Assembly: GCA_000934665.2 (NCBI GenBank)
Contig: KZ538154.1
Location: 62,001 to 113,961 of the forward strand
Reading direction: 5' to 3'
Source of the DNA: Catajapyx aquilonaris
Taxonomy: Eukaryota
DNA length: 51,961 nt
In this document: piece after piece, positions 9,804 through 33,190 of the stretch
Layout of the letters: each line of letters begins with the position of its first letter
How positions within the stretch are numbered: the first letter of the stretch is position 1
Program-made: the position numbers and the translations under genes
The notes under the pieces: generated by a model
Databases searched by the model: none
What the model saw: the letters and a program-made list of their open reading frames with translations, nothing else
Told to the model about the DNA's origin: nothing

Positions 9804-12800
9804 TCATCCGTAGCCAAAACGAGCATCCAATTCTCGATTTTCTGTCCATCTAGTATCATCTATAAATTCTATCCGCTCCTTGATCCATGATACATAGTTA
9901 GCTATACGCACAAACACAGCATGTCTTCGGTTATTACATGAAGGCAATTGCATCGTATTGTCAAACTCAGGGTCTTGTCGCATGCTAAGTATGCCTTGCA
10001 AATGCCACTTGTAGTCATATGCAGGACCAAGTTGCATCACCAGAGCAGTACCCATATCGCCATTACACGAACTTTCTCCTGAAATAAGTTAGAGATATTA
10101 GCTATTATTTGGAAGCTATTATAAATAACTTACTTTTGGGAAATAATGTGCAAAATGTGGTGGGGTCAGCCAGCTCTGGATAACTCTTCATACATTCATC
10201 GTGTGTAACTACAGGCACCTCCATCATAACAGGTTCATGTGTGAAGCTCCCATTTCCACTCAAAGCCCATCCGTATGTCTGTAAAGTTACAGGATAATTA
10301 CCGGTACAGCTAATATTGTTGAATATTATATTCTTACCATGCCCAATCTGCCTTCTCTCAGGAGAACATGGATTGAAATATTATCCAATGGCTTAGATGG
10401 GACGCAAGCTGGTCGTACAAATGGGTCCAACTTTGCTTCCTTTGCAAGACGTAGTATGGCAATATCAGCAGTGTGATTGTCAGATGAATAGTTAGGGTGG
10501 ACATATATTTTGTCAATCTGCAGATGAAAGTGTTAGACAGTTTGTGGACAGTTTTGATATAGTACATACCTCGGAAATCTGGACACTGAGATCTTCAAAC
10601 TCAGGCTCTCTGTAATGCTTCCCTAGAAGTACTTGAAAAGATTTGACAGGTATTGTCTCAGTACCGTTGAACTTCGTCACACATTGAGCAGCTGTAAGTG
10701 TAAGCCTCATTAGATATATGCTTCATGCGTATGTATAGTGTACGTACATGTGAGTACAGCATGAGCACTGATAAGTGTGGCCGAACATGCATATTCCCAG
10801 GTCTCGTTGACCAAATGATATACGCCAACATGCCACGGCCACTGTCCTCTACTTGGGACCATCCCTTCTGTTGGTATCCTCGCTGGTGGTCGACGTGTTT
10901 TTCCACAATCTACAAATCAAGTTTTGTAGTTACGTTCGACCGTGTTCGACCTTCGTATATTCTTACCTGGTATGCATGCAAACGAGTCGTTTCCACTCCA
11001 TGATCCGTCTTCATTGCATTGTCTGAGTAGACTAGGCAATAGGTGGTTACGAGGCACAAAATGAGGTCCGCATCTGTAACTGACCCCAGTTCCTACTATT
11101 TGTGGACTGTCGCATTCGCTGACCTCTAAAGTTTTGGCAGACAAACACTTCAACTTGACCCCTGTAGATGGAGTCAGTGCGTGACAGTTGACGGTCACCT
11201 GGACTCTTATAAGGGCCATAGGACGAAGTGATACCTGTTCTTCTTCAGTGCCTTCAGCTGAAAATATTTGTTTGTTACTGTTACTGTTACTGATTTCATG
11301 ATGAAGATTAACACACCTCTGTCGACTATCTTGATTATCCAATCAGCGTATTTTCCCACCCTGGTAAAGAAGCTGAACTGTGTACTATCACAGGTGATGC
11401 CATCTGAAGTTGGGATACCGACACTGACAATGCCTTGGATGAACCATCGTTTGTCAGTGTCTGAACCAAAAGCGAAGACTAGTCCTCCACCACTATCGCC
11501 GTTACAGACGTTGGTGGCTGTGAATCAGAAACCATCATTTCCGTGTTCTCTCGAGGTTATTTTTAACACTTACAATTTTCACCTACTGCACAGAGGGTAG
11601 TGTAACGCACTTGGGATCTGAAGGCCACTTGTAATTTTTCCATGCAGGTTTGAGGTGATACCACGGTCAACTCTGCCATTCTTAGCTCTCGTGATAGTTC
11701 TTCAGAACCATCTCGACCCCAACCTACCACCTAGGAGAATTTAGAATTGTCTTATTTTTTCTGCAGAACAATCTACAGGTCATTACGTCAGTTCAGTGCA
11801 ATTCCCATATGCACAGCTATGTCGTGACTTTCCTCAAGTAGACAGTGCACCACAGATTTGTTTATAGTTTTCGTTTGGATGACGATGATAATTAGGAGTG
11901 TATTCTGAGTCATCATTTACAGTGAGTATCCTGGGAAAGTCGTGAAATTTCACACGCTTAATTTTTTTTATACTACAGAGGCTGCATCCTCTAAGAAATT
12001 TCATACCATGAGTCATGAGTTCTATCAGGTGCACATAATGATTTAAAGAGATGCAATTCCCATATATGCGGACTCACCTTTCCTCTATTGCCAGGTCTGA
12101 GCATGATCTCTTCCTGTAGAGTGTTCAGGTCACGAATGTAACACACGGGTCTGACAGCATGGTTCAATTCTACTGGAGAATCCAGGATAATTACTGCCAG
12201 ATCTGAGTCATAATTGGCTGGATTGTAATTCGGATGTACATGTATACTGCGTATCTGCAACAATGTATTTATGATCAGATTGTTCTTTAAAAATATGTGG
12301 GTTCACGTACATGTTTAGTCTGAACCAAGGCCTCTTCTTCGTAGTAGTCACGAAAATATTTCCCAACTACAGCTCTGACGTTACCAACCGCCTGAGGTTC
12401 TGATGAGTCTATGTCCTTAGTTATGCAATGGGCGGCTATGAAAAAAAAAACCATTTTTAGTTAGATCCTGAAAAAAGCAATGTTATCGAAACTGCTTACC
12501 GGTGATGATGGCGTTTTCGCTAATGAGAGATCCTCCACAATTGTACACGAACTTGCCTCCGGTCTTCAAGTATAAGCCGGCATGCCAGGGCCACTGACCC
12601 AGGTTGGTGGGTTTGCCGTTGGTCACGAACGGGGTCAAAGGAAGGTCAGACTTGCCACATTCTGAGACGTAGGGATTAATTAGTGAATCGATAATTAAAT
12701 ATTTGCAGGGTGTTTAAATCGGCCCAAACTTCCACTGCAACGGTCATAACCGTCATAACGGTCCTAACGGTCATAACGGCCATACCCAAACGGCCAAACT

Positions 12801-15800
12801 TCTAAGCAATCGGATGATGTAAATTTTCAACCACTTTTAAAATTCCGGATACACGTGGCGGTAAATTATTACCGTGCCATTCTTTGTCATACTACTTTAC
12901 GTAACACCCTGGATAATTAGCGGCCGCCTACGTCAACTCCCCATATTTTCACTCAAATTGATGCGGTACTACCAACGTTTATTACCATCCGCAATTGCCT
13001 ATTGACCTTCAAAGACCAGCATTAAAATTAGCCCAACCCTAATGACCCTCTGACCTGGAGTACACCTGTAGTCGCCCGTCACTGTCCACTTCCCATCCTT
13101 TCGGCAATGACGCACGTTGGAAGCAGCCACCGAAGAAGGGACGTAATACCGTGCACACTTCATCCGGCCCTCGGTACCGTACGGAAACCCAACAGACTCA
13201 TCACCAGCCGGGAACGCAAAGTCTTTACCTAAAGGCATCTTGTACTCTACCAGAACACCTTTTCTTGGTACCAACTGAGGGCAGTAACCAGTAGCCACCC
13301 TGCTGGATTCGGGTGTAGGTTTTTGATCTGTAACATTGATCACAAAACGTCACATATTGGGTGTCATATCACAGCCATGCGTAGCACCAGTCGTGACATG
13401 AATGGGAAATGAGTGTCAATTATTCCATGAAGGTCACTGCTAATTACATGCTGACGGTGACTGTAAATGCCCAGCCTCACCTATTCCTTCTTTTCAACCA
13501 AGTTATCAACAAGACAAGTAGCCTAACTACTTTTTGTTGGTCACGTCTTTTAGAATATCAACTATGGTCATGGTGTATGAACTCTTTGTGCTATTGCTAT
13601 CGAAGCGTACTAATGATGATATTATTAACTGCTTCGTGATATGAATATTCAAATATGTTTATCCTCCTGAGACCCCTGGTACGGAAACGGTTTGGGTTAG
13701 TCAGAAGGTGCTGGAAAAAACAAAGGTACAGTATACTGTACCAGGGGTCTCAGGAGGTTATGTTATGTTAGGACCTTAGCTGTTCAGGAATAGAATACCT
13801 GGAAGACAAGATGGCTCTTTATGGCTCCATTGTCCATCGTCCAAACACACCAACACTGATGTCCCAACCAGACGATGGCCATGAGTACAGGTGAACTTGA
13901 CCAAAGCATTAGGTGGGAGCAAGGAATCAGGTTCATGTCGACAAGCAGGCATGGTATAGTTGATTTCCTTGCACCCAAGAACTATCATCTGACCAAAATC
14001 AGGTGCTTGAGGGAGAGTACATTGTTTTCCAGGCAACAATGCTGGTGTTGGAGGTTGAGGAAGAGGGAATCGAACCTCCTTCTGTTTGCTGGGTTTGGTG
14101 GTTGTTGTAATGTTCTTTCGTTTTCGGGAACACAATCCTGTTGTTTCATCACTTCTATCGGCACAATGGACACGTCCGTCGCACACCAAGTCGGACGGTA
14201 TACATGCACCGTAGTCGCACTGGAAGTGTCCGGTAGGACATGTCCGATTTGAGCACAATTCGGCAGTTTCGTCCGAACCATCCACGCACTCTTCACTACC
14301 CGTGCATACTTGCCATTTGGAGATACACGCACCATACTTGCATTGGAAGGTGTCGTCTGAACACCTACAGGATACGTAGTTGGTAAATTGGAACTGGTTT
14401 TAAGGCAGGATATTTTTACCTGTTGTTGGCACAAAGCTCCGCTGTTTCATCTGAAGTGTCGTAACAGTCGATGTATGAGTCACATACTGTGCTTCGGGAT
14501 ATGCAGCCTCCGAATCGACATTGGAATTCTGTGGGTCTTTTTCCCCAAAAAATGGTAAAAATTAGTTCGTTCTAAAAATGGGAGCAATGACATTACCGGT
14601 TTTATACAGTAACTTCCTTGGAAAACCTGACCATGGTTTTTGCTCACTTCACAGCTAATGCGTACTTTTTTTTGTACATTATATTGACCTTGCAAACGTT
14701 ACATTGTTTAGTAGGGAGATGCCTATTTCAGTTGTGCAGGTTAGTTGATTTGAGTCAGGTTTTTTTCTTTAAGATTTGAGAGGGGTGTAATTTAAGACTC
14801 TGAGACAGAACAAGTTCCATTGTCTTAAGGGGGTTGCTGGCCATATTAAAAATAACCTGTTATTTTGGGGAAATACGCTTGTTCTGGACAGTATGTTCCA
14901 GATTAATCCCGTTCAGAGGAGATGGTTGACGGAGAAAGAACTGGAGTGGTAGATCTGGTTCCCATATAAAATACTAATACAATGCACGCGATGGTTCAAG
15001 GAAAAACGGGAGGCAAACTTGTGATGGGAAATGCCAGCCATTAAAGTTTGTTCTCAAAAAAAACCCAATGATCTGATCGTGATATGCCACGCCTTTTATA
15101 GGCTATATATTAGATACAAGTATCAATTTTAAGTGTCTCTAAATGTTCATTAAGGACAACAAATATCGGAATAGCTATTATATTGAAATTGTGTTAACAT
15201 CATCAGTATCAATTGTTGAAACATCCCAAATTCTTGGAATGCGTATTAATTGTTATTATTACGCATCACGTAATGTTGGCTGTTCATTTCAAGGAAATAA
15301 CATAAATTTCTTGCATAATTATTTTGGCTCCTGATGCCATTAGTTGGAGTGTTTTTTTAAAAAAATTTTCTATCATTAAGAGTACGATGAGTACTGTTAT
15401 CAACACGTGGGTAGACTAGAATAAGTGGTCATGTATGACCTTCACTACCTAGCTGTGGTCGGACATACACGAAAAAATGTGGCTCAAAATTACCCGAAAT
15501 CACTACTAATATTGGTACAAACTATGACGCAAACACAGTCGGGGATTTTATTTTGGGACCACTTATTTTGTCTACAAAATTTTTGAACACGCTACACTTG
15601 CCTATTAATTAAACAGGTCATTGCCTGTTTTTCCCCCTTCCATTTAGAGCATTTACGTCATTGAATATTTCCCCTTCATAAATTGAAAGCATTGTAGACG
15701 CGGAAGGAAAGGGCTGTTCATGAAAACCTAGTTAATGACATGAGAAAATGGGGAAGGAGATGATCAGGGTCGGACGTGTGTGGTCACCAGGGTTTTCCCA

Positions 15801-18130
15801 ATGACAAGTTCAGGCAATGCCCTCTAGTCATAATAAGGCAGTAAAATTGGAACCAGTTAGACCACACATATTTTTTTCCTATATTGCATGTAGGTGTTGT
15901 TCATAGAGTAACACTAAAATATTTTAGTCCACATAACTACAGGGTGTTAATCCTAAGCGTGTCACCAGAAAAGGCGGTGGTAGAGGGCGCAGGTGTGAGC
16001 ATTTTTCCATAAGGAACTAGGGGTCGGAAATGCTACCTCACCGAGTTACGCCCCTTTCAAGTTTACGGTGGCGGAGTGACTCGGTGAGTATGCGTTTCCG
16101 ACCCCTAGTTCCTTATGCAAAAATGCTCACACATGCGCCCTCTACCACAACCTTTTCTGGTGACACGCTTAGGATTAACACCATGTATATTTCTGACTGG
16201 GTATAGTACCTGCATGATTGCTTCTCTGAAAGAATTTGGCAGAAGGCAGGGTCTTCATCCATTCCTCCGGTACAGTCCCAGTGGCCATCGCAGACTTTGT
16301 TAGCTGGGATGCATTTGGCGAGAAACACGCAGCGAAACTCATCGCGTGCGCACATAGGAAAACCGAATATTGTCGCTGAAAAAAATGTATAAATATATAT
16401 ATAAATTTCTCAAGGAAAAACATTCGGAGTCATTAGTCCTACATGTTTGTCTAACGAGCACTGAAGCGTGGAATTCGGCGAAATCGTTCGTATTTACAAA
16501 GGTGATGATGTCATTTTAGACACTTGCATTGTCAACAAAGAAACTATTTTAGTGTATGATGGTGCAATGTGTCGATTTCTGATTAGCAACTGTTCACGAG
16601 TTGAAACTGCGTCGTAGTCTAAATGTGACATGTCTTCGCAGTAATGTACAAAGAATTCCTATACTAATCATAATTTTGAAAAATTAGATTCAGAAATGTA
16701 ATGCATAAAATGATACGTGCTTTTTATTTCCATAGGCTCTGATTTGATAGAAGGTCACATATTGTTTATTGAAATATATTGAAGACTTTGCGTGGAAACA
16801 GGTTGCTTTGATGTTTTTATGACTAAACCCGGAAAAAGTGATTAAAGGTGAATTACATAGATCAACCACTTGTTATGGCCTAAAGGTTGATCACGCAACT
16901 GGTTTTTAGGGCCTATGCATGATGGATGATTTAATCATGTTGTTGAGCACTCTATATGTCCATATAGCATCACGTACGTGCTATGCACCATATTATTAAT
17001 CACTTGCTATGCATTTACTACCGATCACAGTACCGGTTCTAGTATAAGGGAAGAATTGTAAAGATTCAGAATGCCTTACTAGAAACATGGGTCATCCGCA
17101 TAGTAAAAAAAATTGCGTGCGTCATAAATTTGCAAAATTTTCCCACGCATCGTGTTGGGTAGGATAACTCCAGAAAATTCCGGTAGATGGTTAAATCCAG
17201 GAAGAGATAGACATCATGATCGGTCTGGAATGATCCACAGAGCTGTTCACCTTGTATAGTTTCTTTCTCTACTCCAATTTATTATTGGAAGAGCAAAAAA
17301 ATCAGCCTACGTCCAAACACATTTTAAAATTCGTTGACGTCAATGTCCAGGTCATTACAAAAGGTATTTGCAAATTTTTTTTCTAGCTTCTGGATTAGCT
17401 GAGGTAGCAAGGTTAAGACGTTTTCTGTTCAGCAATATTTGTAGATGGACAAGGATGTATATAAAATAACGTTTATGCGGCATGAAGGAAAGTGAGTAAG
17501 GTCAGGGAAGAAAAGTGCGAGTCATTAGGGGGCCATATTAGGTAAGCATTTAATTACTCTAAAAGTAATGAGCAAAAACTGAATGATTTGTTGTGAGTTG
17601 GGCAATGGACAATAGTTGTAATATTATGTATCTAAACCTTCAAATGATACAATTCAAGCCTGCTGAATGCATTATATTAGCGGAACTAAAATATAATGAC
17701 TGTTGCTATGCTTTTCCAATAGGTGAATAAAAGGTAATGAGTCATGCAAATTTTCTATACATGTCTTCTTTATAATACTGCAACTTTCAAGGCTATGAAC
17801 AGTATGAAAACAGCGTAGATTCGCTTCGTAAGGTTCTGCAGAAAAATATTTGCAAAAAAAAAAAAACATCCGATAAAACAAAGAGTGTGTTGCAAGACAA
17901 ATAAACTCAAACGGATGAGATCCCAAAAAATTATGAGTTGCATCATGACAGGATGAGAAAGATCAATTAAACTCTTTAAAAATCCTTATTATATAATATC
18001 CATCCGAAGTTACGAAACAACGTGTAGGCTATTAAGATTGACGTCTTCATTAGTATGCCAACTTATGAAACACACGTCACTCACCTGTAAAATGGGCCAA
18101 AATAGCTGTGGTAAGTAATGTCTGGCCCAT
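9804..18130 (-). CDS. Modular serine protease gene A: signal peptide, 4 LDLa, 2 CCP/sushi-like, active S1A protease, CCP-like, inactive serine-protease-homolog domain
   Basis: Exon 18085-18130 ([15 protein letters not shown]) joins in frame to 16210-16375 (LDLa CARDEFRC...[13 protein letters not shown]), 14420-14536 (LDLa), 13799-14364 (2 LDLa + CCP) and 13055-13327 (CCP-like). Protease 1 exons (12661-11317) contain ECG...[32 protein letters not shown]-like exon (~10967-11257) follows, then a second protease-fold domain (~10908-9804) with TSAQC and CNGDMG. Stop TGA at 9804-9806. Confidence 0.85.
12706..12911. mobile_element. Possible MITE remnant with internal 9-bp tandem repeats, intron of gene A
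   Basis: Ends CAGGGTGTT / AACACCCTG; internal (CATAACGGT)-like repeats at ~12740-12784; no clear TSD. Confidence 0.4.
13663..13757. mobile_element. Short MITE with 20-bp TIRs (possibly piggyBac-like), intron of gene A
   Basis: CCTCCTGAGACCCCTGGTAC and its exact reverse complement GTACCAGGGGTCTCAGGAGG; TTAT on both flanks (left TTAT, right TTAT). Confidence 0.6.
15940..16185. mobile_element. Tc1/mariner-type fold-back MITE, intron of gene A
   Basis: TA|CAGGGTGTTAATCCTAAGCGTGTCACCAGAAAAGG ... CCTTTTCTGGTGACACGCTTAGGATTAACACCATG|TA; ~105-bp imperfect inverted arms; TA TSD. Confidence 0.85.
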
Positions 18131-20650: not shown

Positions 20651-20758
20651 GCTCTTATATAATATTACAACATTTTTGTTTTTTTAAGCTTGCATAGTTT
20701 GGCACTCTCACAATATCATAGTCATAGAACATATTTGAACTTTTAGAAATAATTTTTT

Positions 20759-23700
20759 TTACTTTTTCCTGCTTTCCGCTTCAATCTTGATCAGAATCCT
20801 TACAATCCAATCTGCATATCTCCCAACACGTGTGAATAAAGCATAGTGCATATTATCACAGACCAAATTGGCTTTTGGAACTCCTAAACTCACTATTCCC
20901 TGAAGTGTCCAACTCGTAGAAGATCCTTCATGATTAGCAAAAACCATTCCGCCTCCACTGTCTCCATTACACACACTCGTACCTGCAATGGTAATGTTTT
21001 AGACATACGTTCAATGCAATTAAGTAGTGGTCGTTACCATTTCGGTATCCAGCGCAGTAAGTAGTTGATCTAGTAACAGCTTGAAAAAATTGTTTGAAGC
21101 TATCTGCACAGGTTTGTGCTGACACAACTGGCATTTCAGCCATCTTTAGTTCATCAGCTAGTTCCTCAGTTTCAAGAAAACCCCATCCAACCACCTACAA
21201 AAAAACTGGTTTTAGTACATCTCACAAGGGAAGGTCACAGGGTGATAATGACGGATCTTGATGAAATTTAACATGCTAATACAGGACAATATATGATACC
21301 CAAAAATGAAATATTTCATGCGGAGGCCCATATTTGCAAAAGTTATGACGTCTTAAAGTTAAAAAAAAACCATTTTCATTTGAGTTCATAAATGGATTAC
21401 ATTAGCGACCACATATAAGACCACATTGAAGTGTGTAATCAGTTTCTACACTTTGTCTCATCGGAAAAAAAGTCCTACATAACGGCTCTGTATCTCTTAC
21501 GGTTTAGGCCTTGATACCTGTCCACAGACGGACGGACGGACAGAGCCGTTATGTAGGACTTTTTTCCGATGAGAAAAAGTGTAGAAACTGATTACACACT
21601 TCAATGTGGTCTTATATACCACATATAATGACATTGAAGTGTGTAATCACACACTTCAATGTCATTATATGTGGTCGTTAATGTAATCTCATTATGAATG
21701 AAAATGTACTATTTTTGGAACTTTAAGACGTCCTAACTTTTGCAAATATGGGCCTCCGCACGAAATATTTCATTTTTGGGTATCATATATTGTCCTGTAT
21801 TAGCATGTTAAATTTCATCAAGATCCGTCATTATCACCCCGTGACCTTCCCTTGTCAGTATCTCACTCATTCAGCATACTTACAGTGCCAACATTGTTTT
21901 CTGCCAATTGAACATCCTCCACTAATGTTTGAAGTGATCTGGGTATGCATACAGGTCGGACAAAGTACGTGAGAGTCACATCTTCTTTGAATGTCAATAT
22001 GGCAATGTCGGAGTCGAAACTTTGAGGGTTGTAACTTGAATGGAGATAGATTGCGGAAACCTGTTAAATAGGCATTGATAAACATGGCATCAAGGTCATT
22101 TTGATGTAATTGGCATACCTCTCTGGATTGAACATTTTCGTCATTTTGTTCCATAGCTCGGTAATATTTTCCCATGTACACCTTTACGGATGATGTAATA
22201 CGAGTCGTCGTTTTTCCAGGCTCGGTCACACAATGTCCGGCTAAAAGATATTATGAAGTGTCAAATCTTATTTATATTTCACAACGTATGTTCGCAATTC
22301 AAGTCCAATATGCTAAAAACCTTCCCAGTTAAAAACTACCCCTAATGATCCCCCTGGGGCATACGTAGAGGCCTCCGTATTGATTTGCATTGCGAACATA
22401 TACGCTGTGAAATATATTCGTAATACAAATCAATACGGAGGCCTCTATGTATACCACAGGGGGATCATTAGGGGTAGTTTTTAACTGGGAAGGTTTTTAG
22501 CGTAATGTTATACCTGTAATTACTGCATTTTCCGATATCAGCGAACCACCACATATGTATTTCCATTTTCCTTCTGATTGTAAGTATAGAGCAACATGCC
22601 AAGGCCATTGTCCTCTGGTGGTAGGTTGCCCATATGTAATCAAAGGCTTCTTGGGAATATCCGATTTGCCACATTCTGTAAATGTATCAGGTTATTACAT
22701 ATGGTACACTGACCAGTACTTATAAACCACCCACCTGCCTGACATGTAAAACTTCCTGAACCTGTCCAGGTACCATCATCCTTACACGTTCGGTAATGAA
22801 CCGGAAGCTTATTAGATGGAGTGTAATAATTGTTGCAACTGTACGTAGCTTCTGTACCAGGTCTTACAGTATTTTCACAACTACTTATCTGGAACGTTGT
22901 GTTATGTACACATTCAATTTGTACTCCTTTACTAGGGTGCAGGGGAGGACATGCCATGATGGTACCACCGGTACTGGGCCTACCAGTAGGACGTGTAGGG
23001 GAACTAGTTTGAGGTCGTGTAGGTGCATTGGTGTGAGGTCGTGGTGGACCTTCAGGCTCACTGTCTGATACACAAATTGGTGTTGGTTGACTCCAGTGAC
23101 CTCCTCTTTGGCACACTGTACGATCCTGTCCATGTAGGTAGTACCCACGGTTGCACGAAAATGATACCAAAGTACCATATGGGACACGACCTCTTTGGTT
23201 GTAACAGACAGGGTTATCATGATCTTGGTCACAACCAGCAATTTCCATGTGTCCTCGTTTAGGTTTGGATGGTAGTTGGCAGCCATTTCCTTGGTTGATT
23301 TGTTCGTTGGTACCGCCTTGGTTTTCCCATCCTTGTTGGCCAGGGTTGGGTCTTCCATGGCCATTTCCAGGTTTGTCTGGACGGTGACCTGGTGGGATAG
23401 GTTTGTTTCCAGGTCGACCTCGGTTGTTTTTCTTACGCTGACCTGGAGGACCATTAGGTAGTTCATCGTCCTCTAGTTCATAACCCTTGTCGGAATATTG
23501 CCGTCGACGACGACGACGTGCTGCGTTGGGGTCGTGACATGGGGGTTCGCGGCAACGCCTGGAAAATAAAGAATATGTTAATTTGGAAAGAGTGTATGAA
23601 AACTGTAGTTTCACACACTGTGATGTCAGACATGATGATGATATGACTACCGCGGGTTGTTCACCCACATACGGTACAGTAGCCTATATAAATTAGGTCA

Positions 23701-24896
23701 TGGATATGAAGACTGGTAATAAAAGCACGATCCTTTGCAATGGGTGAAGGACACCAATACTGAGCGTTGGTTCAAGTACAGTATTCTAGTACAATATTTC
23801 AAGGCCAACGCGAATTTCACCTTTGTCCTTTTATACATACTGCGCGTAAAGAATACCTCAGTTTTTGCTAAGACGCCACAAAATTGTGTGTGCATATCAC
23901 GTAGGACCAACAAAATTGCAATATCAAGATACAAACGTCTAATAAAAAATGATGCCTGTTGTTCCCATTTAAGCAGGTAGTTTTTGTATAACTAATGGCT
24001 ATTAATGGATATCAGAAGTTATGATATTATAATTAAATCGATTTGATTATCCAATGTCTCCATCGAATTCACCCAATTTTCGCCTAAAGTTTGACAATAG
24101 GTGTCTGCTTTTATTGTTTCAACTTTACACACATTCATTTTGGAATTCATTCATTTTAAAAAGATATTTGCATACGTGTAAGGTTTTGGTGTAGGTCTGC
24201 ACAATCCTCCTTCATCAGATGCATCATCACAGTTAGCGAATCCATCACAAACTTGTTGTCGAGGTATGCAACCACCTATGTGGCACTGAAATTCATCCCC
24301 TCTGAAAAATAATGACAAAATGAATATAATTGATAATGTGAGTTATTAATAGTGTTTACCTGCAATTTTGCCGCCGGTAGTTATCACATAATGAAGGATC
24401 TTCATCACTTCTATCTGAACAGTCAGCTTGACCGTTGCACACTTCATTGTCAGTTAAACAATTGAGTCCATCACGGCATGCAAAATTGCGTGAATTACAT
24501 ATCCTGTTACCAATTACTATAGACACTGGAAAGAAAATAGCAAATGTAAAAAATATCTATTAATATGCCAATTTGCAAGAAATTATTAGAAATTAACTAA
24601 TTGAATTATTTTGGTGAATTAATTTATCAGACAATTGAATAATTTTGCCACTAGAAGTTTATCAAGATTGTAAACTCAAACTTTGGGCTAATAATTAATA
24701 AATGATATATTAATATAACTACAGTAATATATCAACATATCTATGATAGTACTGTATTTTATCGCACCAAAAGGCGCCAATTGTTTTGTAATGACGTTTT
24801 ATTTTATTTACTTGCCACCTACAAAATAAATAATTATTGGATCCTACCTGAAATGGCAAAAATAATCAGCAGCACCTGACAATAGTGGACATACAT
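20759..24896 (-). CDS. Modular serine protease gene B: signal peptide, 2 LDLa, RRRRRR site plus G/P/N/Q-rich region, CCP, T/P linker, CCP-like, active S1A protease
   Basis: Exon 24848-24896 (MYVHYCQVLLIIFAIS); LDLa exons ~24360-24525 and ~24176-24301; large exon ~22735-23558; protease exons with ECG...[34 protein letters not shown]; stop at 20759. Confidence 0.88.
21225..21854. mobile_element. Tc4/Tc5-like non-autonomous fold-back transposon, intron of gene B
   Basis: Ends CAAGGGAAGGTCAC / GTGACCTTCCCTTG; near-continuous inverted repeat over most of its length; TCA duplicated on both sides within a CTCAG (CTNAG) target. Confidence 0.85.
22274..22501. repeat. Nested palindrome / MITE-like inverted repeat, intron of gene B
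   Basis: 22312-~22387 is the reverse complement of ~22426-22501 (GCTAAAAACCTTCCCAGTTAAAAACTACCCCTAATGATCCCC); the loop is also complementary to 22274-22298. Confidence 0.8.
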
Positions 24897-26062
24897 CCTG
24901 ACCGTCCACCTCACGCACACTAACTGTCAAACCCTAATTTTTTTTGGGTGGCAAACAGGTCAGCAGCGTTGCACCAAGCCACATGAACTCGACATAGAAT
25001 GAAATGGAAAATCTGGTTACATGTGGATAATGGTATGCTCACCTCATCAAGGTCACGTGGCAATGCTGCATGTCTGCCTTTTCTTTACACAAGGTAATCC
25101 CCCACAAGTTTTCAATGCTTTCAAAGAAGGTGTAATCTGGCAACACGTTAGGTTCTCATCCGGAAGGTCAGTTTTTTCTCAACTGGATCGGGGACTTTGG
25201 TTTGACGTCAGGTTGTCAGTTCATAGAACAAAACAACTTTTTAAAAGTCATTGTTTCGCTAAGCCAAAATGTGCAGGTACAGGTAATACCGGTCAACTCC
25301 GCATTTGCCTAAACTTGATTTTTCTTACGTAAACTGTCCTCTAAAATAATGGGTCATTTTGAAAGGTACTTGTTGCTCGTTTCATGAACGTTGCATCAGT
25401 ATTGTGAAAAAAAAATCATTCAATATTATTTCCTAGAAATTTGGGATTTTTGATTGTGTAATGAAGCCCTATATATAAAGAGGTTATCTGCGTTTATTAC
25501 TATATCGTCGTCATATATTAGACATAACCAAAATTAATTTTTAAGCAAATTTGGCGGTTTAGGACAGTTCAATTTGTGATATTCATAGTCCAAAATTATT
25601 GCATGTGATGAAAAGTCGGACTATATCATGTTTTTGTACTGGTGTGAAAAAAAAGGATGTGAGGTCCAGTGCGTCTGGGATTTTCCACAATCGTCATTTG
25701 TATGGCTTACACTTCAAGCTTTTGTGTAAGGCATAATACCAGTCATAAATACCTTCCACGAATGTAAAATTTCACACAAAATATTTGAACACACATTCAG
25801 GTTACAAAAGTTCAAGGTCACCTTGCATACTTGTCATTTTGTGACACTGAGACGTAATTCCGCATTGTGTCAGGTCAGTAAATTCAATTGACATATTACG
25901 TAACATAGTACCGGCAAAATAATCGCATCGTCTACAAGTCAGCTACCATGAGAAGTGCACACGTCACAGGAAAACTGCGGTTATAGTCAACTGGAAGTGC
26001 TGTGGTTTTCAGTGTACTATAATAATTGGCGAGCTCAAACCCATGGATATTCTCTCAACACC
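24897..26062. promoter_or_regulatory. Divergent promoter region shared by genes B and C, with kappaB-like motifs
   Basis: Head-to-head start codons 1.17 kb apart; GGGATTTTCC at 25677-25686; GGGGATTACC on the minus strand at 25093-25102; TCAAGGTCA at ~25047 and ~25812; TGACGTCA at ~25203. Confidence 0.45.
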
Positions 26063-28974
26063 ATGATATTACCTGCATTTATCCTGCTGCTATGTTGTAA
26101 GTATATAGCTATAATTTGTGTGTTTTATAGCCTTTCGTGCTATTGTCTCACAGTATGAATTGCGTATTACATTATTTAACCTTGGATATAGCTACTTAAT
26201 TCATGTTTGTTTTTTAGGCAGCAGTTGGGCACGAATATTGAATCCATGTAATCCTGGCAGTTTTAAATGCTCAGGTGACCTCAGTTGCATTTCACAAGGA
26301 GCTGTCTGTGATGGTTGGTCAGACTGTCCGGATGGGTCAGATGAAGATATCATCACATGTGGGTCATTGATACGACTTAAGAGACGATCAACTGCTAAAG
26401 TGTGCAACCAAGCAAAATCACCAGCGAATGGTCAAGTGTCATACCCTGATTGTCTAAAATCGGAATATGAATTTGCTCCGATATGCATAGGCAATTCAAA
26501 TTTGGGAAAAGTGAGTGATGGATGGGAAGCTCAATTTAAATGCAAATCTGGTTTCACATTACAAGGAAGCTCTACAATCAAGTGTAACGTAGGAGTATGG
26601 AGTGATGATGAACCTACATGTGTCAAAGATGGTAAGTTAATTTTAATTAATATTTTATACATTCACTTATGCAACATATTTTCAGATTCTGGACCCAAAT
26701 CATGCACTCTTCCTACTAAACCACCCAATGGAGAGATGGAGGTGCAAGGGTGTACCCCAGATTCATATCACCCTAGTTGCCTAATGGTAAAAGGATCTGT
26801 TTTGCCTCCAAATAGTATGATCATATTTTCGTGCAATAATGGGTACAGCCTACAAGGATCTCGAATTGCCACATGCTTGAATGGCAAATGGACTCCAAAT
26901 ATTCCATCATGTGTGATTGGTAAGTTGTCACTATTTGTTGCTTTGTGAAGGTCTAACCACCTCCTTTTACAGCTGAAGCACCTCCAACCAATGCACCTCC
27001 TACCAAAGCACCTCCAACCAATGCACCTTCCAATTGCCCAAAACTCCAGCTTAATCCAAATGTGAGAGCCAAATGCAGTTTGTCCAACAATGCTGAGGTT
27101 GACTGTAATCAAGAGCTGCCTCATAGGAGTAAGGTAGTTCTGGAATGTGACCCATATTATGTTCCCAACACAGGCTTGTCTCGTATGACTTGCCAGAATG
27201 GTAGATGGACACACAGCAGCTTCTTTTGCACTGCAGGTAACATTAATAGTATAGAGTGTGACATTTCATTGCTTGATGCATTGTGCACATAATGGTGAAT
27301 TTTGTAATTGTTTGTGGACAGTAAGATTACATGGCCACCTTACAAACTATATGCGAAAACAATGCATGTTTAAAATTATTCTTGAATGTCATGCATAGGT
27401 ATGAGTGACTCTGTGCCTGAGGAAGCTGTCAAGAGCCTCCTCGATGAAATGAGGATGCTTAAAGAGGAAGTAACGATGATTGGAAAAGAAACTCGAGAGA
27501 AATTGGATGAGCTTGGAACCATGATTGAAGCAATAGCAGAACAAGTGGGGCTTTATCCATCTATTGATGTGCGTTCGGGGACTCCAAGAAAAACAGAAAA
27601 TGTCGATGATCCTAATAAAACTATTTTGCCATTATAACCTAAACAAAAGTAGTTACATTATTGTATAACGTAATTCTTATTTACATATTTATGCCAAAGA
27701 AGAAATAATTTTCAATGTTTAAGTTTACTCTCACTACTTTTAATCAAACTCGACAATGCAAACTCACGAATACTCAGTATACATATCACACATGACTAGT
27801 CATTTATGTAGTCAATTCAATAAATACGACCCACAATGCATTTTTCAAGCATATGAAATGTCAAGCTGTCTTATTTCGTTTACCTTGTCCCTGCCAACAA
27901 CATTTTCATTATATTTTGTAGAATGTGGTGTGGCCGATGTCACTCGTGAAGCATTCATAGTTCATGGTGTTCCCACCATGAGAGGACAATGGCCATGGCA
28001 TGCTGCTATCTATCAGCTCAGGAAATCTGAATGGACCTACATATGTGGTGGATCACTCATTAAAGAAAATATTGTGATCACAGGTAATAAATCATACCAC
28101 GTAATAAATTGCATTGGATTTATGTACATAATTTACAGCTGCTCACTGTGTCACTCAACCTTCCACAACTGCTATTGTTGATGATACTACTCTTAAAGTG
28201 GTACTGGGAAAGTATTCTTCCAACTACTCAGAGAAAGAAGAAGGGACACAGGAATCAAATGTCTGTAGCAGTGTAGTTATGTTCATTTTGTCAAACTTAA
28301 ACATGTGTCAACATTTTAGATTCAGACAATATTAGTACACAGCACTTACGACCCAAACCTCTTCAGTTCTGACATTGCTCTACTTGTACTGGAAATTCCT
28401 GTCACATACAGTTACTATGTGCGGCCTGTTTGTTATCCAGAAAACTCTGAAATTGATGAACAACTGTTCTTTAGCAGTAATGTAGGATGGGTAAGTTTTC
28501 TATTCACTAGGTGTACTCAGATTTAATCGTATTTATCTATGACTGTTGTATGCCTACTGATGCAGGTTGCAGGATGGGGCATAGATGAAAACAACCAAGT
28601 GTCCAAAGAACTACGGAAAGCTTCTCTTCAAACAGCTTTTGGATATAAATGCAGAGAAAAGGGATACCCAGTGTCTGATTCGACATTTTGTGCTGGAAAC
28701 ACCAATGGTAATAACTATTCATGTTGTTACAGTAGTACAGTACAATCAACTTCATCTCATTATTACAGGAACTAATGTTTGCAATGGTGACAGTGGAGGA
28801 GGTATGGTGTTCCCATATGGCAGAGGTTTGGACACCAAATGGTACCTGGTTGGTGTTGTCAGCTTTGGTGTTCGTAAAAGAGGATCACCGCATTGTGATC
28901 CAACTCATTACAGCCTTTTTACACGAGTGGGAAAATTTTCAGATTGGTTGGGATGGACCATTATTGAATTATAG
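26063..28974 (+). CDS. Modular serine protease gene C: signal peptide, LDLa, RLKRR site, 2 CCP, (APPTN) linker, CCP-like, active S1A protease
   Basis: Exons 26063-26096 (MILPAFILLLC), 26218-26631, 26686-26919, 26973-27236, 27922-28083 (ECG...AF/IVHG, WPWH), 28139-28260 (AAHC), ~28320-28489 (SSDIA), 28566-28707, 28769-28974 ([10 protein letters not shown]); all junctions in frame. Confidence 0.9.
26978..27028 (+). repeat. Coding 15-bp tandem repeat (APPTN/APPTK x3+)
   Basis: GCACCTCCAACCAAT GCACCTCCTACCAAA GCACCTCCAACCAAT GCACCT, a mucin-like linker in gene C. Confidence 0.85.
27399..27637 (+). CDS. Candidate alternative terminal exon of gene C (~79-aa helical tail replacing the protease domain)
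   Basis: Acceptor CATAG| is phase-compatible with the donor at 27236; open, protein-like frame GMSDSVPEEAVKSLLDEMRMLKEEVTMIGKETREKLDELGTMIEAIAEQVGLYPSIDVRSG...; AATAAA at ~27819. Confidence 0.6.
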
Positions 28975-29346
28975 GTTGATGCTTGAAGGCTGGATTGCTC
29001 AATGGCTGTAATGTTTTGATGGCCTATATTTTTACCAAACAATGAGTAAGAGTGAAATATGAACTATGAAAACTTTTGAGGGATATTGAAATCTTGGTCA
29101 TTGGTCATGTTGATCTCATGCTGATATGAGCAAATTCAGAGGACATATTGGTGCAATAAAGAGTCAATAAGAAACAATTAGAAATGATTTTTTATTTAAG
29201 TTGTCCTAACTAGATACTCTTCCAGAATCATGAAAGCTGCAGCCATTTTTTCCTAAAACGTATTGCTGTGGGGAGAGTATCAATGGCATGTATTAAACTA
29301 CCAACAACTGTGCATTTATATTTTATATTTAATATTGAAACATATA

Positions 29347-32300
29347 CTAACCTACTCTTCTCTTGCACCCAATTTTGGCACGTTGTCTCTTGCACTTCTT
29401 GGTACAAATTTCCTTAAATCTAAATATCCTACACCTGTGACCTGCCATTGTCCTGAAATAGATTTTTCCACATCATCATTATGTAAAATGCATGAAGAAC
29501 ATAATACTGACCTAATCTGGTCATCAAACATAACACTTCGAGCATTAGCCCATTTCCATAAAAGGCTTTTCCGCAGTTGGTGACCCACCCCGACAGGTGA
29601 CTGCCATGATGACAAAACCTTCCCTAGTATACTTAGCACATGCAACTATAATAAAAAACAGCATCTGATGATAGCAGTAGGGCTATGCTGAAATATTATG
29701 TAAAACACTTTTGATAAGACATACTTGCTGATCTGAAGTGCTGATTGTCAGGATGCTTGCTGCCATCTCATTGCAGACATATTTAGCCTGCCTCCAAGTT
29801 TTCCTCATACCAAATGAGAACCAGTAACAAGTTGGAGGATTTCCATACCAATTTTGGGGACATGCTGAGTTGTCAGAAAATGTCTTTTGACACCCAATTA
29901 TTTGTGCACGTTTTAAATTGCATGGTTTTTCTGCCACTGCTAGCTCTACTGTGCATGTTTCGTCTTCATTTGTATTGTTTCCCATATTTTTAGTGAGAAT
30001 TTTGGCACCTTAAATATGAAGTTCCATAATTACACCACCTGATTTTGTCAACAATAATTCAATATTTGTATACCTGTACTTGGCCAAACAGCAGGGGTGT
30101 GAGTGGATGCAATCATCCCTTTGATCCAATCTATATAACTGCTAACTTGAACATAAACCGAGTAGGCTTTAGGTATGCAGGTTCGGTTATGAGTATGGGC
30201 CAATCCAAAACTGACCACTCCTTCTACCTGCCACTTGCTACTTCCATCAATCCGGGTGACTAGGCCACCACCGCTGTCACCAGTACACACATTGGTGTTG
30301 TTCATGAAACCAGCACAAAATACTCCATCTGGTAAACTTCCATTGTAGTAATTCAGACATGTTGTCCAATTTTTCACGAGTAGTTTACCCTGATGCAATT
30401 CGGATGGATGTAATTCTAGCTCATTCCATCCCCAACCAACTACCTGTAATAAATAACATGATTTTTATGCTTGTAAGATTTACTAAGAATAAACTTACTG
30501 TGGCAATGATGCCTGCTCTTGGAATTATGCCCGGACTGGGTAGACACACGGGACGAACATTACTAGAAAACTTAACAGGCTTCTCCAGTACCAGAAGAGC
30601 AATATCAGCCTCCAGAGATTCATAGTCATAATGATGATGAGGAATGATTCGCTTGACTCTCACTGTCTCCACGTACTGGTCATCTTTTTCAAACTCCAAA
30701 AAGTGCTTTCCTAATGCTACCAGCAAATCTGCTGGTGGCAAAATTCTGCTCACATTCAGACCCACACAGTGACCAGCTAAAATAAAGAATGATTATGAAC
30801 TGTTTTTGCATCAGTACGACTCATGACATACCTGTCAAAACTATTTGCTGGGTGATGAGAGTACCACCACAACTAAAAACCCATGTAATGTAGTCCCTCA
30901 CGTATATTCCAACATGCCAGGGCCACTGTCCACGAAATAGTACTTTTTGTCCATTGTGGATAAAAGTAGCTCTTGTTTCATCCATACTGCCGACACCACA
31001 AATGGGTCTACACTGCAGTGGTGAGTTCCCTACCCATTGCCCTCGGTGGGTACACATTATCACACTGTCGGAAAAATCGACAGCAGGCTCCCAGAACTGA
31101 TCACAGTGAAATCGAGCAGTGGATCCAACAAAATGGGTCTGGTGACATGATATGGACCTTCCAAATCTGTCTGAACAAGCCACAAATGCTCCTGGGTCAG
31201 AATGAACAGGAAGACATGATACCGAATTGGATGGGGGATTGATATGTGTTTCTTGTCCCTTGGATTCTGTAATAGAAAATGTTTTGTAATTTTTCAAGCA
31301 GTCCAAAATAGATTGACAGTCAGACATTACCAAGTGGGAAGTTGCAAAGAAATGGAAGAGTGGAAGAACAGTCCAATGGTGTCCATTGGGAATTATTGTT
31401 AGATTGTGTCGAATCATATGTCATGCACTTCTTTGATGATGCACTGATGCCATCTTGCCAGTTGACCCAAAAAGAAACTGGACTTGAATCGGCCCATTGC
31501 CACTGACCATACCTGTGGCTTAGCCCAATCCATAACAATGGCACTATTTGATCTGCAAAGAAACATATCTCAAGGGATTGATACAAGCAGCCTCTACATA
31601 TACGGTATCTGTCATACCAAGTATAAACCTCAGCTGATGAGGATACGTGATTGAAACTAGTTCACCCCCTTGCTGCTGACACACCTCCTTGGCACCATCC
31701 CATGATGCCTTGTAATCAGATATGTAAATGCAAGCAGAACTGACAGATGTCCACCACTGTGTAGGACATGACATGCTAGCCTTTTGGCAGGCAAAATTAT
31801 ACTGATAATAGCATGGCACACTTAACAAGTCTCCTCCGTAGTCCAATGCAGCACAGTGGTAAGAAACATCATTCTTCCACCTGTGGCCAACATGGGTTTG
31901 TCCAACCCACAAACGATGATGCAGGTAGCGTGATGCTACTGTGTCATCATCAACACTTCGAATCATAGCCAAATGAGCCCTGTCATCAAGTTGACTACAT
32001 TGTTGTTCTGCATTTTGCCAGGCAGCTTCTTTTCTGGAGAAAAACCAGCATTCATTATTTTCCAAGATCCAGCTAGGTGGACAGGGACCTGTAATGAAAA
32101 AAATAGCAATGACATTCCTAGGTTCTGCCAGAACACACATACACTTACTGGAAGGCTTCTTGCAAATGAAACGCTGATATGATTGGCATGACTCGCTTTC
32201 CCATGTCAATGCATCAGAAAGTGTTATGCAGGTTTCGTTTGTATGATCTGGTTCACCCGTGACACCCCATTGCTCCATGTCCAGCTCGGATCCATCAATC

Positions 32301-33190
32301 CATCTCCAATGATCTGCACCATCAGGCATTTCAAGTCCAAGCCACACAGTCCAAAACATTTTTTCTGCAAAAATGGTGTGCTCAGTTGAAGCCTGTTTAT
32401 CATTAACGTTATTATACAATAACCTATTACCTCTTAGATATTCCTGAACTATCCAATTATGAATGCTGGCCAGTGTTGCATTTTCATGCATCCGCATACA
32501 TTTTTTCTCAGCCCTGTACCACGAAGCGGTCTCTTTGGATACATAGTAGCAGGCATCTTCAATGCGCTCCCAGGCCATAGGGCATGGATCTGCGGAATAG
32601 CATGATAAATATCATTAATTCAGTAATTAATATATTCCAAAGATCATTACTTGCGTTAACTCTGCATGCAAAGTGAAACTTGTTCTTGCACTTTTTCCGT
32701 TTCCATTTCCCACTTGAAGAAATATGCCCACACTGTTTGTTATCAATTAAGGGCATATTACCCCAAAATGAGAAGTCTTTGGGGGTCTTGTCACTCCATT
32801 GCCAATTGCCATCTTTTTGGTACAGGCCAATCCACATGTTCCAAAACATTTTACCTGTAACAGTGAGTGTAGTTGATAATGAACAAATTGATCATAACTT
32901 CATGGTGTATTTACCTTTGATAAATTTCATCTCTGCTTCTGTGTTCAAACAGAGTATATTTGACTCCGGGTCCATCCATTTACAATATTCCTGCCCTTCC
33001 TGCCAACTTCCCCTTGGGTCTGCAACATGGTAGCAGTAATCCTGAAACAACTCCCATTCTGAAGGGCATATGTCACATTTAGCAACTGAAAAAAAATCAA
33101 TTAATTATTATTGATTCCAAATACTAGTTTGTGTAACACAATATTACCTTTCAACTTCAGGAAAAGGACAAACAATAATAACGACTTCAT
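29347..33190 (-). CDS. Lectin-protease gene D: signal peptide, 4 C-type lectin domains, CCP-like, active S1A protease, C-terminal degenerate basic C-type lectin domain
   Basis: Exon 33148-33190 (MKSLLLFVLFLKLK) joins VAKCDICPSEWELFQDYCY. CTL hallmarks: WIGL, WLGL...EPD, WVGQ, WIGL. CCP-like module ends CRPICG...TF/IHNG; protease has WPWH, TAGHC, EADIA, NVCTGDSGGG. An in-frame splice leads to CPQNWYGNPPTCYWF; a predicted 59-nt last intron gives HRCRIFRFKEICTKKCKRQRAKIGCKRRVG-stop. Confidence 0.85.

What the first reader, a model, noticed from the sequence alone, without database searches (positions are those of the whole stretch)
27236..27922. Gene C carries an intronic alternative last exon giving a protease-less, MAp44/MAp19-like form
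Seen: the phase-1 donor at 27236 can join either 27922 (G|AA TGT GGT = ECG, protease) or 27399 (G|GT ATG AGT = GMS..., ~79 codons then stop). The second peptide is an amphipathic, heptad-like E/K/L/M helix, unlikely for random AT-rich intron. It sits in the only long internal intron of the gene (685 nt versus mostly ~55-120 nt), with AATAAA downstream. Known: MASP1/2 use alternative terminal exons to make the non-catalytic regulators MAp44 and MAp19. Inference: a convergent decoy, inhibitor or oligomeric adaptor (LDLa-CCP3-coiled coil).
Basis: partly seen in the sequence, partly recalled or inferred. Interest (0 to 1): 0.75.

Follow-up and report, generated by a model that had tools for sequence, protein, structure and literature searches.

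The report
Immune protease gene's protease-free splice form
An arthropod gene for a secreted immune-type protease also makes an RNA that swaps the cutting domain for a self-associating helical tail, which may give a non-cutting brake or scaffold for the same pathway, although its function is untested.

Summary
The alternative last exon is real. A public run (one study, not labelled RNA, but its contigs are spliced) joins 27236 to 27399 at GT..AG and runs on to 27835, 11 nt past AATAAA 27819. The product would be 394 aa: signal peptide, LDLa, three Sushi domains and a 79-residue tail.

The tail has exon-like GC and a strong amphipathic period (5 of 5000 shuffles). It folds as one 43-residue helix and passes a homotrimer model (0.49, best control 0.13).

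The protease junction 27236-27922 was not observed. It is inferred because 28 of 29 paralogous loci have the same phase-1 intron and because the protease exons are spliced, have an intact triad and their own AATAAA.

No relative of the tail was found, so conservation is untested; none of three long paralogous introns holds such an exon.

This is a ModSP/HP14-like gene, not a MASP: it resembles MAp44 only in splicing logic. Decoy function is inference (about 0.45). The new acceptor is followed directly by a good donor, a possible re-splicing switch. The scan's notes showed no earlier case. Verdict: new variant of a known kind.

The parts
26063..26096 (+). Exon 1 coding part: start codon and most of a predicted signal peptide (judged by eye from the hydrophobic core)
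   Evidence: Gene model; joint 26096-26218
26218..26631 (+). Exon 2: LDLa domain (acidic motif intact), polybasic furin-type site at residues 64-68, six-cysteine Sushi 1
   Evidence: Pfam PF00057 and PF00084; motif scan; joints
26686..26919 (+). Exon 3: six-cysteine Sushi 2
   Evidence: Pfam PF00084; joints
26973..27236 (+). Exon 4: Pro/Thr linker and six-cysteine Sushi 3; ends at the shared phase-1 donor (weak: at or above 4 of 45 control donors)
27237..27398 (+). 162-nt intron removed for the protease-less form; weak acceptor (below all 45 control acceptors)
   Evidence: Joint 'skips 162, GT..AG'
27399..27637 (+). Alternative last exon, coding part: 79 codons and stop; one N-glycosylation sequon near the end
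27419..27547 (+). Predicted 43-residue amphipathic helix (coiled-coil candidate)
   Evidence: AlphaFold2 helix 7-49; three-copy model; moment test
27397..27404 (+). AG|GTATGA: acceptor directly followed by a donor-like hexamer, in phase with acceptor 27922 (candidate re-splicing site)
   Evidence: Sequence; donor matrix; use not shown
27638..27835 (+). 3' UTR of the protease-less form, AATAAA at 27819-27824; contig ends at 27835; T-rich tracts follow
27922..28974 (+). Five protease exons (27922-28083, 28139-28260, 28320-28490, 28566-28707, 28769-28974): linker Cys, activation site F327|I328, triad H372/D428/S523
   Evidence: four internal joints
28975..29175 (+). 3' UTR of the protease form, AATAAA at 29155-29160; contig ends at 29175

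Best explanation
Gene C is a ModSP/HP14-like secreted zymogen gene that makes two proteins from one N-terminal half.

Shown: splicing 27236 to 27399 with a 3' end just after AATAAA 27819, giving a 394-aa frame LDLa-Sushi x3-helical tail.

Inferred, strong: the ancestral splice 27236 to 27922 gives the 582-aa active protease, so the two forms are mutually exclusive last-exon choices.

Modelled: the tail forms a parallel coiled coil, so the short form is a secreted oligomer carrying several copies of the zymogen's docking half.

Inferred, weak: it occupies the receptor or substrate sites that the zymogen needs and, being multivalent, outcompetes it. ModSP-type zymogens autoactivate when concentrated on recognition complexes, so this would raise the trigger threshold, with the splice and polyadenylation choice setting the ratio of brake to enzyme. 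My odds: exon real 0.95, both forms made 0.88, tail oligomerises 0.7, net inhibitory role about 0.45.
For: Spliced contig across 27236-27399 that ends 11 nt after AATAAA; the protease contig ends 15 nt after its own AATAAA.

Family junction: 28 of 29 paralogous loci have a phase-1 Sushi-to-protease intron at this point, 25 of them 55-115 nt. A relative's protein P0003 runs straight across the equivalent junction of gene A. Triad and activation site are intact.

Tail looks like coding, folded sequence: and (codon score above 181 of 181 overlapping non-coding windows). The mature short form has 24 Cys, all within four six-Cys modules.

Three-copy model: score 0.49, best of 3 controls 0.13; runs agree in at least 89% of contacts, partner pLDDT at least 69. 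The mark was reached by 21 of 30 solved self-pairs and 0 of 23 single chains; on eukaryotes by 17 of 29 (animals 7 of 16) and 0 of 30.

Literature (passages seen): HP14 docks through its LDLa domains and autoactivates by concentration (PMC7215089; PMC10795361); MAp44 displaces MASPs (PMC7982787; PMC10855846).
Against: No functional data, one run, no orthologue.

Gene C has one LDLa, whereas HP14 needs LDLa2-5 for one partner. A furin-type site right behind the LDLa may cut it off, so the docking surface is unknown.

The complex calibration was for two copies, not three; one of three runs scored 0.30, below the mark; only 1 of 7 eukaryote cases without an older solved relative passed; amphipathic helices bundle readily in such models; only the trimer was tried.

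In one search a second frame scored almost as high (0.14 against 0.148), so that signal is mostly composition. MAp19's own function is described as unclear.
Confidence: 0.45

Rival explanations
1. Scaffold or independent effector: the oligomeric short form clusters recognition proteins, zymogens or microbes (C4BP-like arms on a helical core) and promotes activation or opsonisation, or has a job unrelated to the protease form.
For: Same anatomy and models as the best explanation. ModSP-type activation depends on local concentration, which a multivalent arm could raise. C4BP uses C-terminal helices to display CCP arms (PMC11251186 passages). A pure decoy does not need a 79-residue tail.
Against: No partner known. 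The tail has no Cys and no sequence or fold match to a C4BP core. The best-studied precedent for a protease-less splice form, MAp44, is inhibitory.
Confidence: 0.23
2. Attenuation by intronic polyadenylation: a young exonised stretch diverts transcripts away from the protease; the tail is incidental and the protein does little.
For: The tail is unique in the genome searches and absent from the three long paralogous introns. Its acceptor scores below all 45 controls. An open frame this long arises in 85 of 5000 shuffles, which is not extreme.
Against: Exon-like GC confined to the coding part, GC1 0.55 against GC2 and GC3 0.35, strong helical periodicity and a confident helix are hard to get without selection on the peptide.
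Confidence: 0.2
3. Gene C has become a protease-less gene, and the protease exons are a separate or orphan unit.
For: The one joint that a contig shows at donor 27236 goes to 27399, and the two halves lie on separate contigs, each ending after its own AATAAA.
Against: Only 86 nt lie between the end of the first contig and acceptor 27922, with no convincing signal-peptide exon. The protease frame keeps the linker Cys, activation site and triad, which need the N-terminal half. Acceptor 27922 is strong (at or above 38 of 45) and is the family junction.
Confidence: 0.08
4. Artefact: assembly chimera or rare mis-splicing.
For: One run of one study, contigs only, library not on record.
Against: The joint falls exactly on the predicted GT..AG with 255 letters on the shorter side, in a contig with 1 other letter over its four pieces, and ends at a canonical signal.
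Confidence: 0.04

Closest known systems
Insect modular serine proteases (Drosophila ModSP, Manduca HP14, Tenebrio MSP, Helicoverpa SP41-43)
   Same: Signal peptide, LDLa, Sushi and six-Cys Sushi (Wonton-like) domains, no clip domain, C-terminal trypsin-fold protease with intact triad and a hydrophobic residue (Phe) before the activation site. Family features from passages of PMC7215089 and PMC10732536.
   Different: One LDLa instead of four or five; three Sushi; furin-type site after LDLa; member of a large genome-specific expansion (53 matches to the first protease exon). No protease-less splice form turned up in searches.
MAp44 (MASP1 gene) and MAp19 (MASP2 gene)
   Same: One gene gives an active modular protease and, through alternative splicing or polyadenylation, an N-terminal form lacking the protease domain (PMC10855846; PMC7982787; passages).
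   Different: No CUB or EGF domains. All non-catalytic domains are kept (MAp44 drops CCP2; MAp19 keeps only CUB1-EGF). The private exon adds a 79-residue helical domain, whereas the MAp tails are short peptides (17 and 4 residues, recalled). MASPs dimerise by their N-termini (recalled); here self-association is modelled at the new C-terminus.
C4b-binding protein
   Same: CCP arms joined by C-terminal helices into an oligomer (PMC11251186 passages).
   Different: Dedicated genes, helix-hairpin-helix core with disulfides, six or seven alpha chains; no homology detected. Likeness of layout only.
Horseshoe crab factor C truncated transcript; HGF NK1/NK2 (both recalled, from no call)
   Same: Recalled cases of modular protease-family genes with alternatively spliced forms that lack the protease domain.
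   Different: Not verified here: searches listed no paper on it by title or abstract start, and none was opened. Different domains; no added coiled coil as far as recalled.
Recursive splice sites / RS-exons (AG|GT)
   Same: Acceptor directly followed by a donor consensus (PMC8758631 passages).
   Different: Known cases lie in introns over about 10 kb and need a strong acceptor; this intron is 685 nt and the acceptor is weak.

Membership tests
MASP-associated proteins (MAp44/MAp19) | Product of a MASP gene with CUB1-EGF(-CUB2) domains | tested here: not met
   Pfam finds LDLa, Sushi and Trypsin only in the five stretches scanned
MASP-associated proteins (MAp44/MAp19) | Alternative terminal exon or polyadenylation removes the protease domain | tested here: met
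   Joint 27236-27399 and 3' end after AATAAA; protease form inferred
MASP-associated proteins (MAp44/MAp19) | Binds the recognition molecule and displaces the protease | not testable with these tools
   Needs binding and activation assays
ModSP/HP14 modular serine proteases | LDLa + Sushi + Wonton-like + protease domain, no clip domain | tested here: met
   six Cys in each Sushi read from the translation; 34% identity over residues 20-575 to P0003
ModSP/HP14 modular serine proteases | Four or five LDLa repeats | tested here: not met
   One LDLa; the RNA contig joins the start exon directly to exon 2
ModSP/HP14 modular serine proteases | Intact triad and activation after a hydrophobic residue | tested here: met
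   H372, D428, S523; F327|I328
ModSP/HP14 modular serine proteases | Orthology to insect ModSP by phylogeny | not tested
   No named ModSP sequence was returned by the searches
ModSP/HP14 modular serine proteases | Autoactivation on a pattern-recognition complex | not testable with these tools
   Biochemistry needed
C4BP-type oligomerisation domain | Homologous helix-hairpin-helix core with inter-chain disulfides | tested here: not met
   No Cys in the tail; single long helix; no Pfam, PDB-sequence or Foldseek match
Coiled-coil oligomer | Heptad-type amphipathic helix that self-associates | tested here: inconclusive
   Periodicity and model pass (0.49 against 0.13) support it; binding and chain number are not shown
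Recursive splice site | AG|GT with a usable regenerated donor | tested here: met
   Regenerated donor at or above 24 of 45 control donors; 9 of 2610 coding hexamers do as well
Recursive splice site | Long intron and strong acceptor | tested here: not met
   685 nt; acceptor below all 45 controls
Recursive splice site | Lariat or intermediate from the regenerated donor | not testable with these tools
   Needs nascent RNA or lariat sequencing

The most novel reading that the evidence does not exclude
A ModSP-type immune protease gene has gained a private exon that replaces the catalytic domain with a trimerising coiled coil, making a multivalent regulator of its own zymogen. The choice is made at an AG|GT site in a short intron: splice first to 27399, then either polyadenylate (regulator) or re-splice from the regenerated, stronger donor to 27922 (enzyme). 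That would be splice-encoded self-regulation at the top of an arthropod immune cascade, convergent with MAp44 in logic and with C4BP in layout, switched by recursive splicing. The regulator part alone has about 0.45; with the recursive switch, about 0.12.
Probability: 0.12. Interest if true: 0.78.

Novelty: new variant of a known kind. Interest (0 to 1): 0.5.

Why it matters
The inhibitor of ModSP described in the paper read here is a serpin (Necrotic; PMC10732536 passages). A splice-encoded, protease-less sibling would be a second kind of control, acting before activation, and would show the MAp44 solution arising independently in an arthropod cascade. The RNA-supported exon makes this directly testable with two recombinant proteins. 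The reach is limited: it is one gene of a large expanded family, in an unstudied species, with no orthologue found.

Tried and rejected
Run search: no RNA holder listed; one run of unknown kind, which proved spliced when laid. No listed contig covers 27836 to about 27968 or joins 27236 to 27922; contigs drop variants and a filter leaves records out, so this hole is no evidence either way. Contig depths were not used to rank the forms. The joined form could not be looked up in other runs (table 5b closed).

Homologues of the tail: own genome by protein and by DNA, only itself (2 and 1 candidates scored); 1.84 billion representatives, 2 hits, both generic helical repeats of fungal-type histidine kinases by my reading of the sequences, rejected; Pfam, 2 sub-threshold hits; ESM Atlas, best 0.77, a lead at most; PDB sequences, best E 0.25; Foldseek, 0; metagenome contigs, 0 of 462 candidates. 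Local tblastn on the window and 58 of 64 loci (six copies of gene C's own region left out): best E 0.56, antisense to a gene A exon, rejected.

Orthologue of gene C: none with exon 2 (0 of 24 candidates) or Sushi 3 (0 of 5); the last protease exon gave 3 of 48, the best being gene A's orthologue; exon 3 in metagenomes gave 1 of 172 at 37% identity, not examined further. These blanks are weak evidence.

Cassette reading (tail then protease): the phase-1 donors inside the exon score at most 1.5 apart from the one at its first base; the one good internal donor (27545) is phase 0. Rejected.

Non-coding RNA in 25000-30000: one Rfam match far below threshold.

The '1 of 59 junctions regenerate GT' figure was dropped as a control because those junction codons are fixed by the protein; that set also held mis-paired introns (L012 contains a Sushi exon), so scores were redone on 45 introns.

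Paper searches returned 0 papers; others listed none on a protease-less ModSP form (listings only). The library lacks most subscription papers; no supplements were opened.

Full report
Setting. The window is G000:C275:62001-113961 of a 285.6-Mb animal assembly. Four related LDLa, lectin and Sushi serine-protease genes lie between about 9.8 and 34 kb. Gene C is on the + strand. An earlier scan note calls the animal a hexapod, probably a springtail; I did not test this.

Gene model. Four shared exons (26063-26096, 26218-26631, 26686-26919, 26973-27236) continue in frame either into 27399-27637 (394 aa) or into five protease exons from 27922 to 28974 (582 aa), all with GT..AG ends. Introns are 121, 54, 53, 685, 55, 59, 75 and 61 nt. 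Pfam gives LDLa, three Sushi domains and Trypsin. The protease has F327|I328, H372, D428 and S523; both forms carry a polybasic site at residues 64-68; the mature short form has 24 cysteines and one sequon, in the tail.

Is the exon real? One public run holds the region. Its kind is not on record, but its contigs skip introns: 8 of the 9 modelled junctions appear as GT..AG joints. A 1145-nt contig runs from 26422 through exons 2, 3 and 4, jumps the 162-nt intron to 27399 and ends at 27835, 11 nt after AATAAA 27819. A 957-nt contig covers the protease exons and ends at 29175, 15 nt after AATAAA 29155. Contigs cannot prove an RNA end, but both stop just behind a canonical signal. This is one study and may be the genome's own source material.

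Is the protease form real? Its junction is not shown by any listed contig. It is inferred. I took the 30 best of 53 genome matches to the first protease exon. Apart from gene C itself, 28 of 29 have a phase-1 intron at the same Sushi-to-protease point and one (gene D) has none; 25 of the 28 are 55-115 nt and three are 268, 393 and 525 nt. Many are near-identical tandem copies, so they are not independent. A relative's protein, P0003, 84-96% identical to gene A in most single-exon matches, runs directly across the equivalent junction. So 27236-27922 is the ancestral junction and the new exon sits inside it. The three long paralogous introns hold no YAG frame over 26 codons: the exon looks private to gene C.

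Is the tail a protein domain? Length: 85 of 5000 intron shuffles reach 79 codons. GC: 0.41, against 0.28-0.33 in the flanks. Periodicity: a single peak at 100 degrees, reached by 5 of 5000 shuffles. The codon score is within the range of true exons and above 181 of 181 overlapping non-coding windows, but another frame scores almost as high, so this is mainly composition. AlphaFold2 without alignment gives one helix, residues 7-49, with block pLDDT 78-95 over residues 1-50, and a low-confidence end. Three copies of residues 1-60 scored 0.49, 0.49 and 0.30, best control 0.13, with like residues paired between chains, that is a parallel bundle; runs agree in at least 89% of contacts and partner pLDDT is at least 69. 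The mark was reached by 21 of 30 solved self-pairs and 0 of 23 single chains in microbes, by 17 of 29 and 0 of 30 in eukaryotes, but by only 1 of 7 without an older solved relative, and the calibration held two copies. This supports self-association and does not show it or fix the chain number. No homologue was found, so selection could not be tested.

Splice signals. On 45 control introns of this family the shared donor is weak (at or above 4 of 45), the new acceptor is weaker than all 45, and the protease acceptor is strong (38 of 45). Use of the weak acceptor therefore probably depends on coupling to polyadenylation or on an enhancer (inference). The new exon begins with GTATGA, so splicing to it regenerates an in-phase donor of average strength (24 of 45), better than the original; 9 of 2610 coding hexamers would do as well, and a paralogue appears to use the same nine letters as its donor. 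This was noticed after the fact, and known recursive sites lie in very long introns with strong acceptors (PMC8758631 passages), so I give it low odds.

How it most likely works. ModSP-type zymogens carry LDLa, Sushi and Wonton domains, dock on recognition proteins through LDLa and autoactivate when concentrated (PMC7215089; PMC10795361; passages). A secreted oligomer of the same N-terminal half without the enzyme could hold those sites with higher avidity and raise the threshold, as MAp44 displaces MASPs (PMC10855846; PMC7982787; passages). The same anatomy could instead cluster partners, as C4BP displays CCP arms on a helical core (PMC11251186 passages). Caveats: gene C has a single LDLa that a furin-type cut may remove, and its partners are unknown. 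I put decoy at 0.45, scaffold or independent effector at 0.23, mere attenuation at 0.20, split gene at 0.08 and artefact at 0.04.

Relation to what is known. It works like MAp44/MAp19 in splicing logic but is not a member (no CUB or EGF). It is ModSP-like in domain type but fails the four-to-five LDLa feature, and orthology was not tested. Protease-less splice forms of horseshoe crab factor C and of HGF are recalled precedents that I could not verify. Searches found no paper on a truncated ModSP isoform, in a library that lacks most subscription papers. The scan's own notes showed no similar case.

Verdict. New variant of a known kind; interest 0.5.

Noticed in passing
window 9807-16400, - strand (gene A): Several LDLa, two Sushi, an intact protease, another Sushi and a second protease-like domain lacking the His and Ser motifs, in one chain; orthologue P0003 (1040 aa) has the same layout.
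   Followed up: partly
window 20750-24560, - strand (gene B): Paralogue head-to-head with gene C, with a run of six Arg and a long Gly/Pro/Asn-rich linker before its Sushi domains; a near-identical piece lies on G000:C13163 (L018).
   Followed up: no
window about 29200-33100, - strand (gene D): Several C-type-lectin-like domains, Sushi, protease with no intron at the Sushi junction, then a further lectin-like domain after the protease; its 3' end converges on gene C's, with a minus-strand joint at 29265-29352. Domain names by eye.
   Followed up: partly
window 26043-26066: A seven-codon upstream frame whose stop codon overlaps gene C's start codon; its ATG lies within the RNA contig's 5' part.
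   Followed up: no
window 26373-26387: Polybasic furin-type site between LDLa and Sushi 1, which could release the LDLa from both forms.
   Followed up: no
G000:C4758, C2210, C2146, C6305, C4280, C2919, C8742: Tandem arrays of Sushi-protease modules every 2-5 kb; whether they are separate genes or multi-protease chains was not examined.
   Followed up: no
window 27042: One A-to-G difference between the RNA-type contig and the genome in exon 4; allele or strain is the simplest reading.
   Followed up: no
window 13660-13760 and 15950-16150 (introns of gene A): Inverted repeats seen by eye, possibly small non-autonomous transposon remnants.
   Followed up: no
window 21212-21352 and 21727-21870; 22200-22690: Short duplicated stretches in introns of gene B.
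   Followed up: no
   Followed up: no
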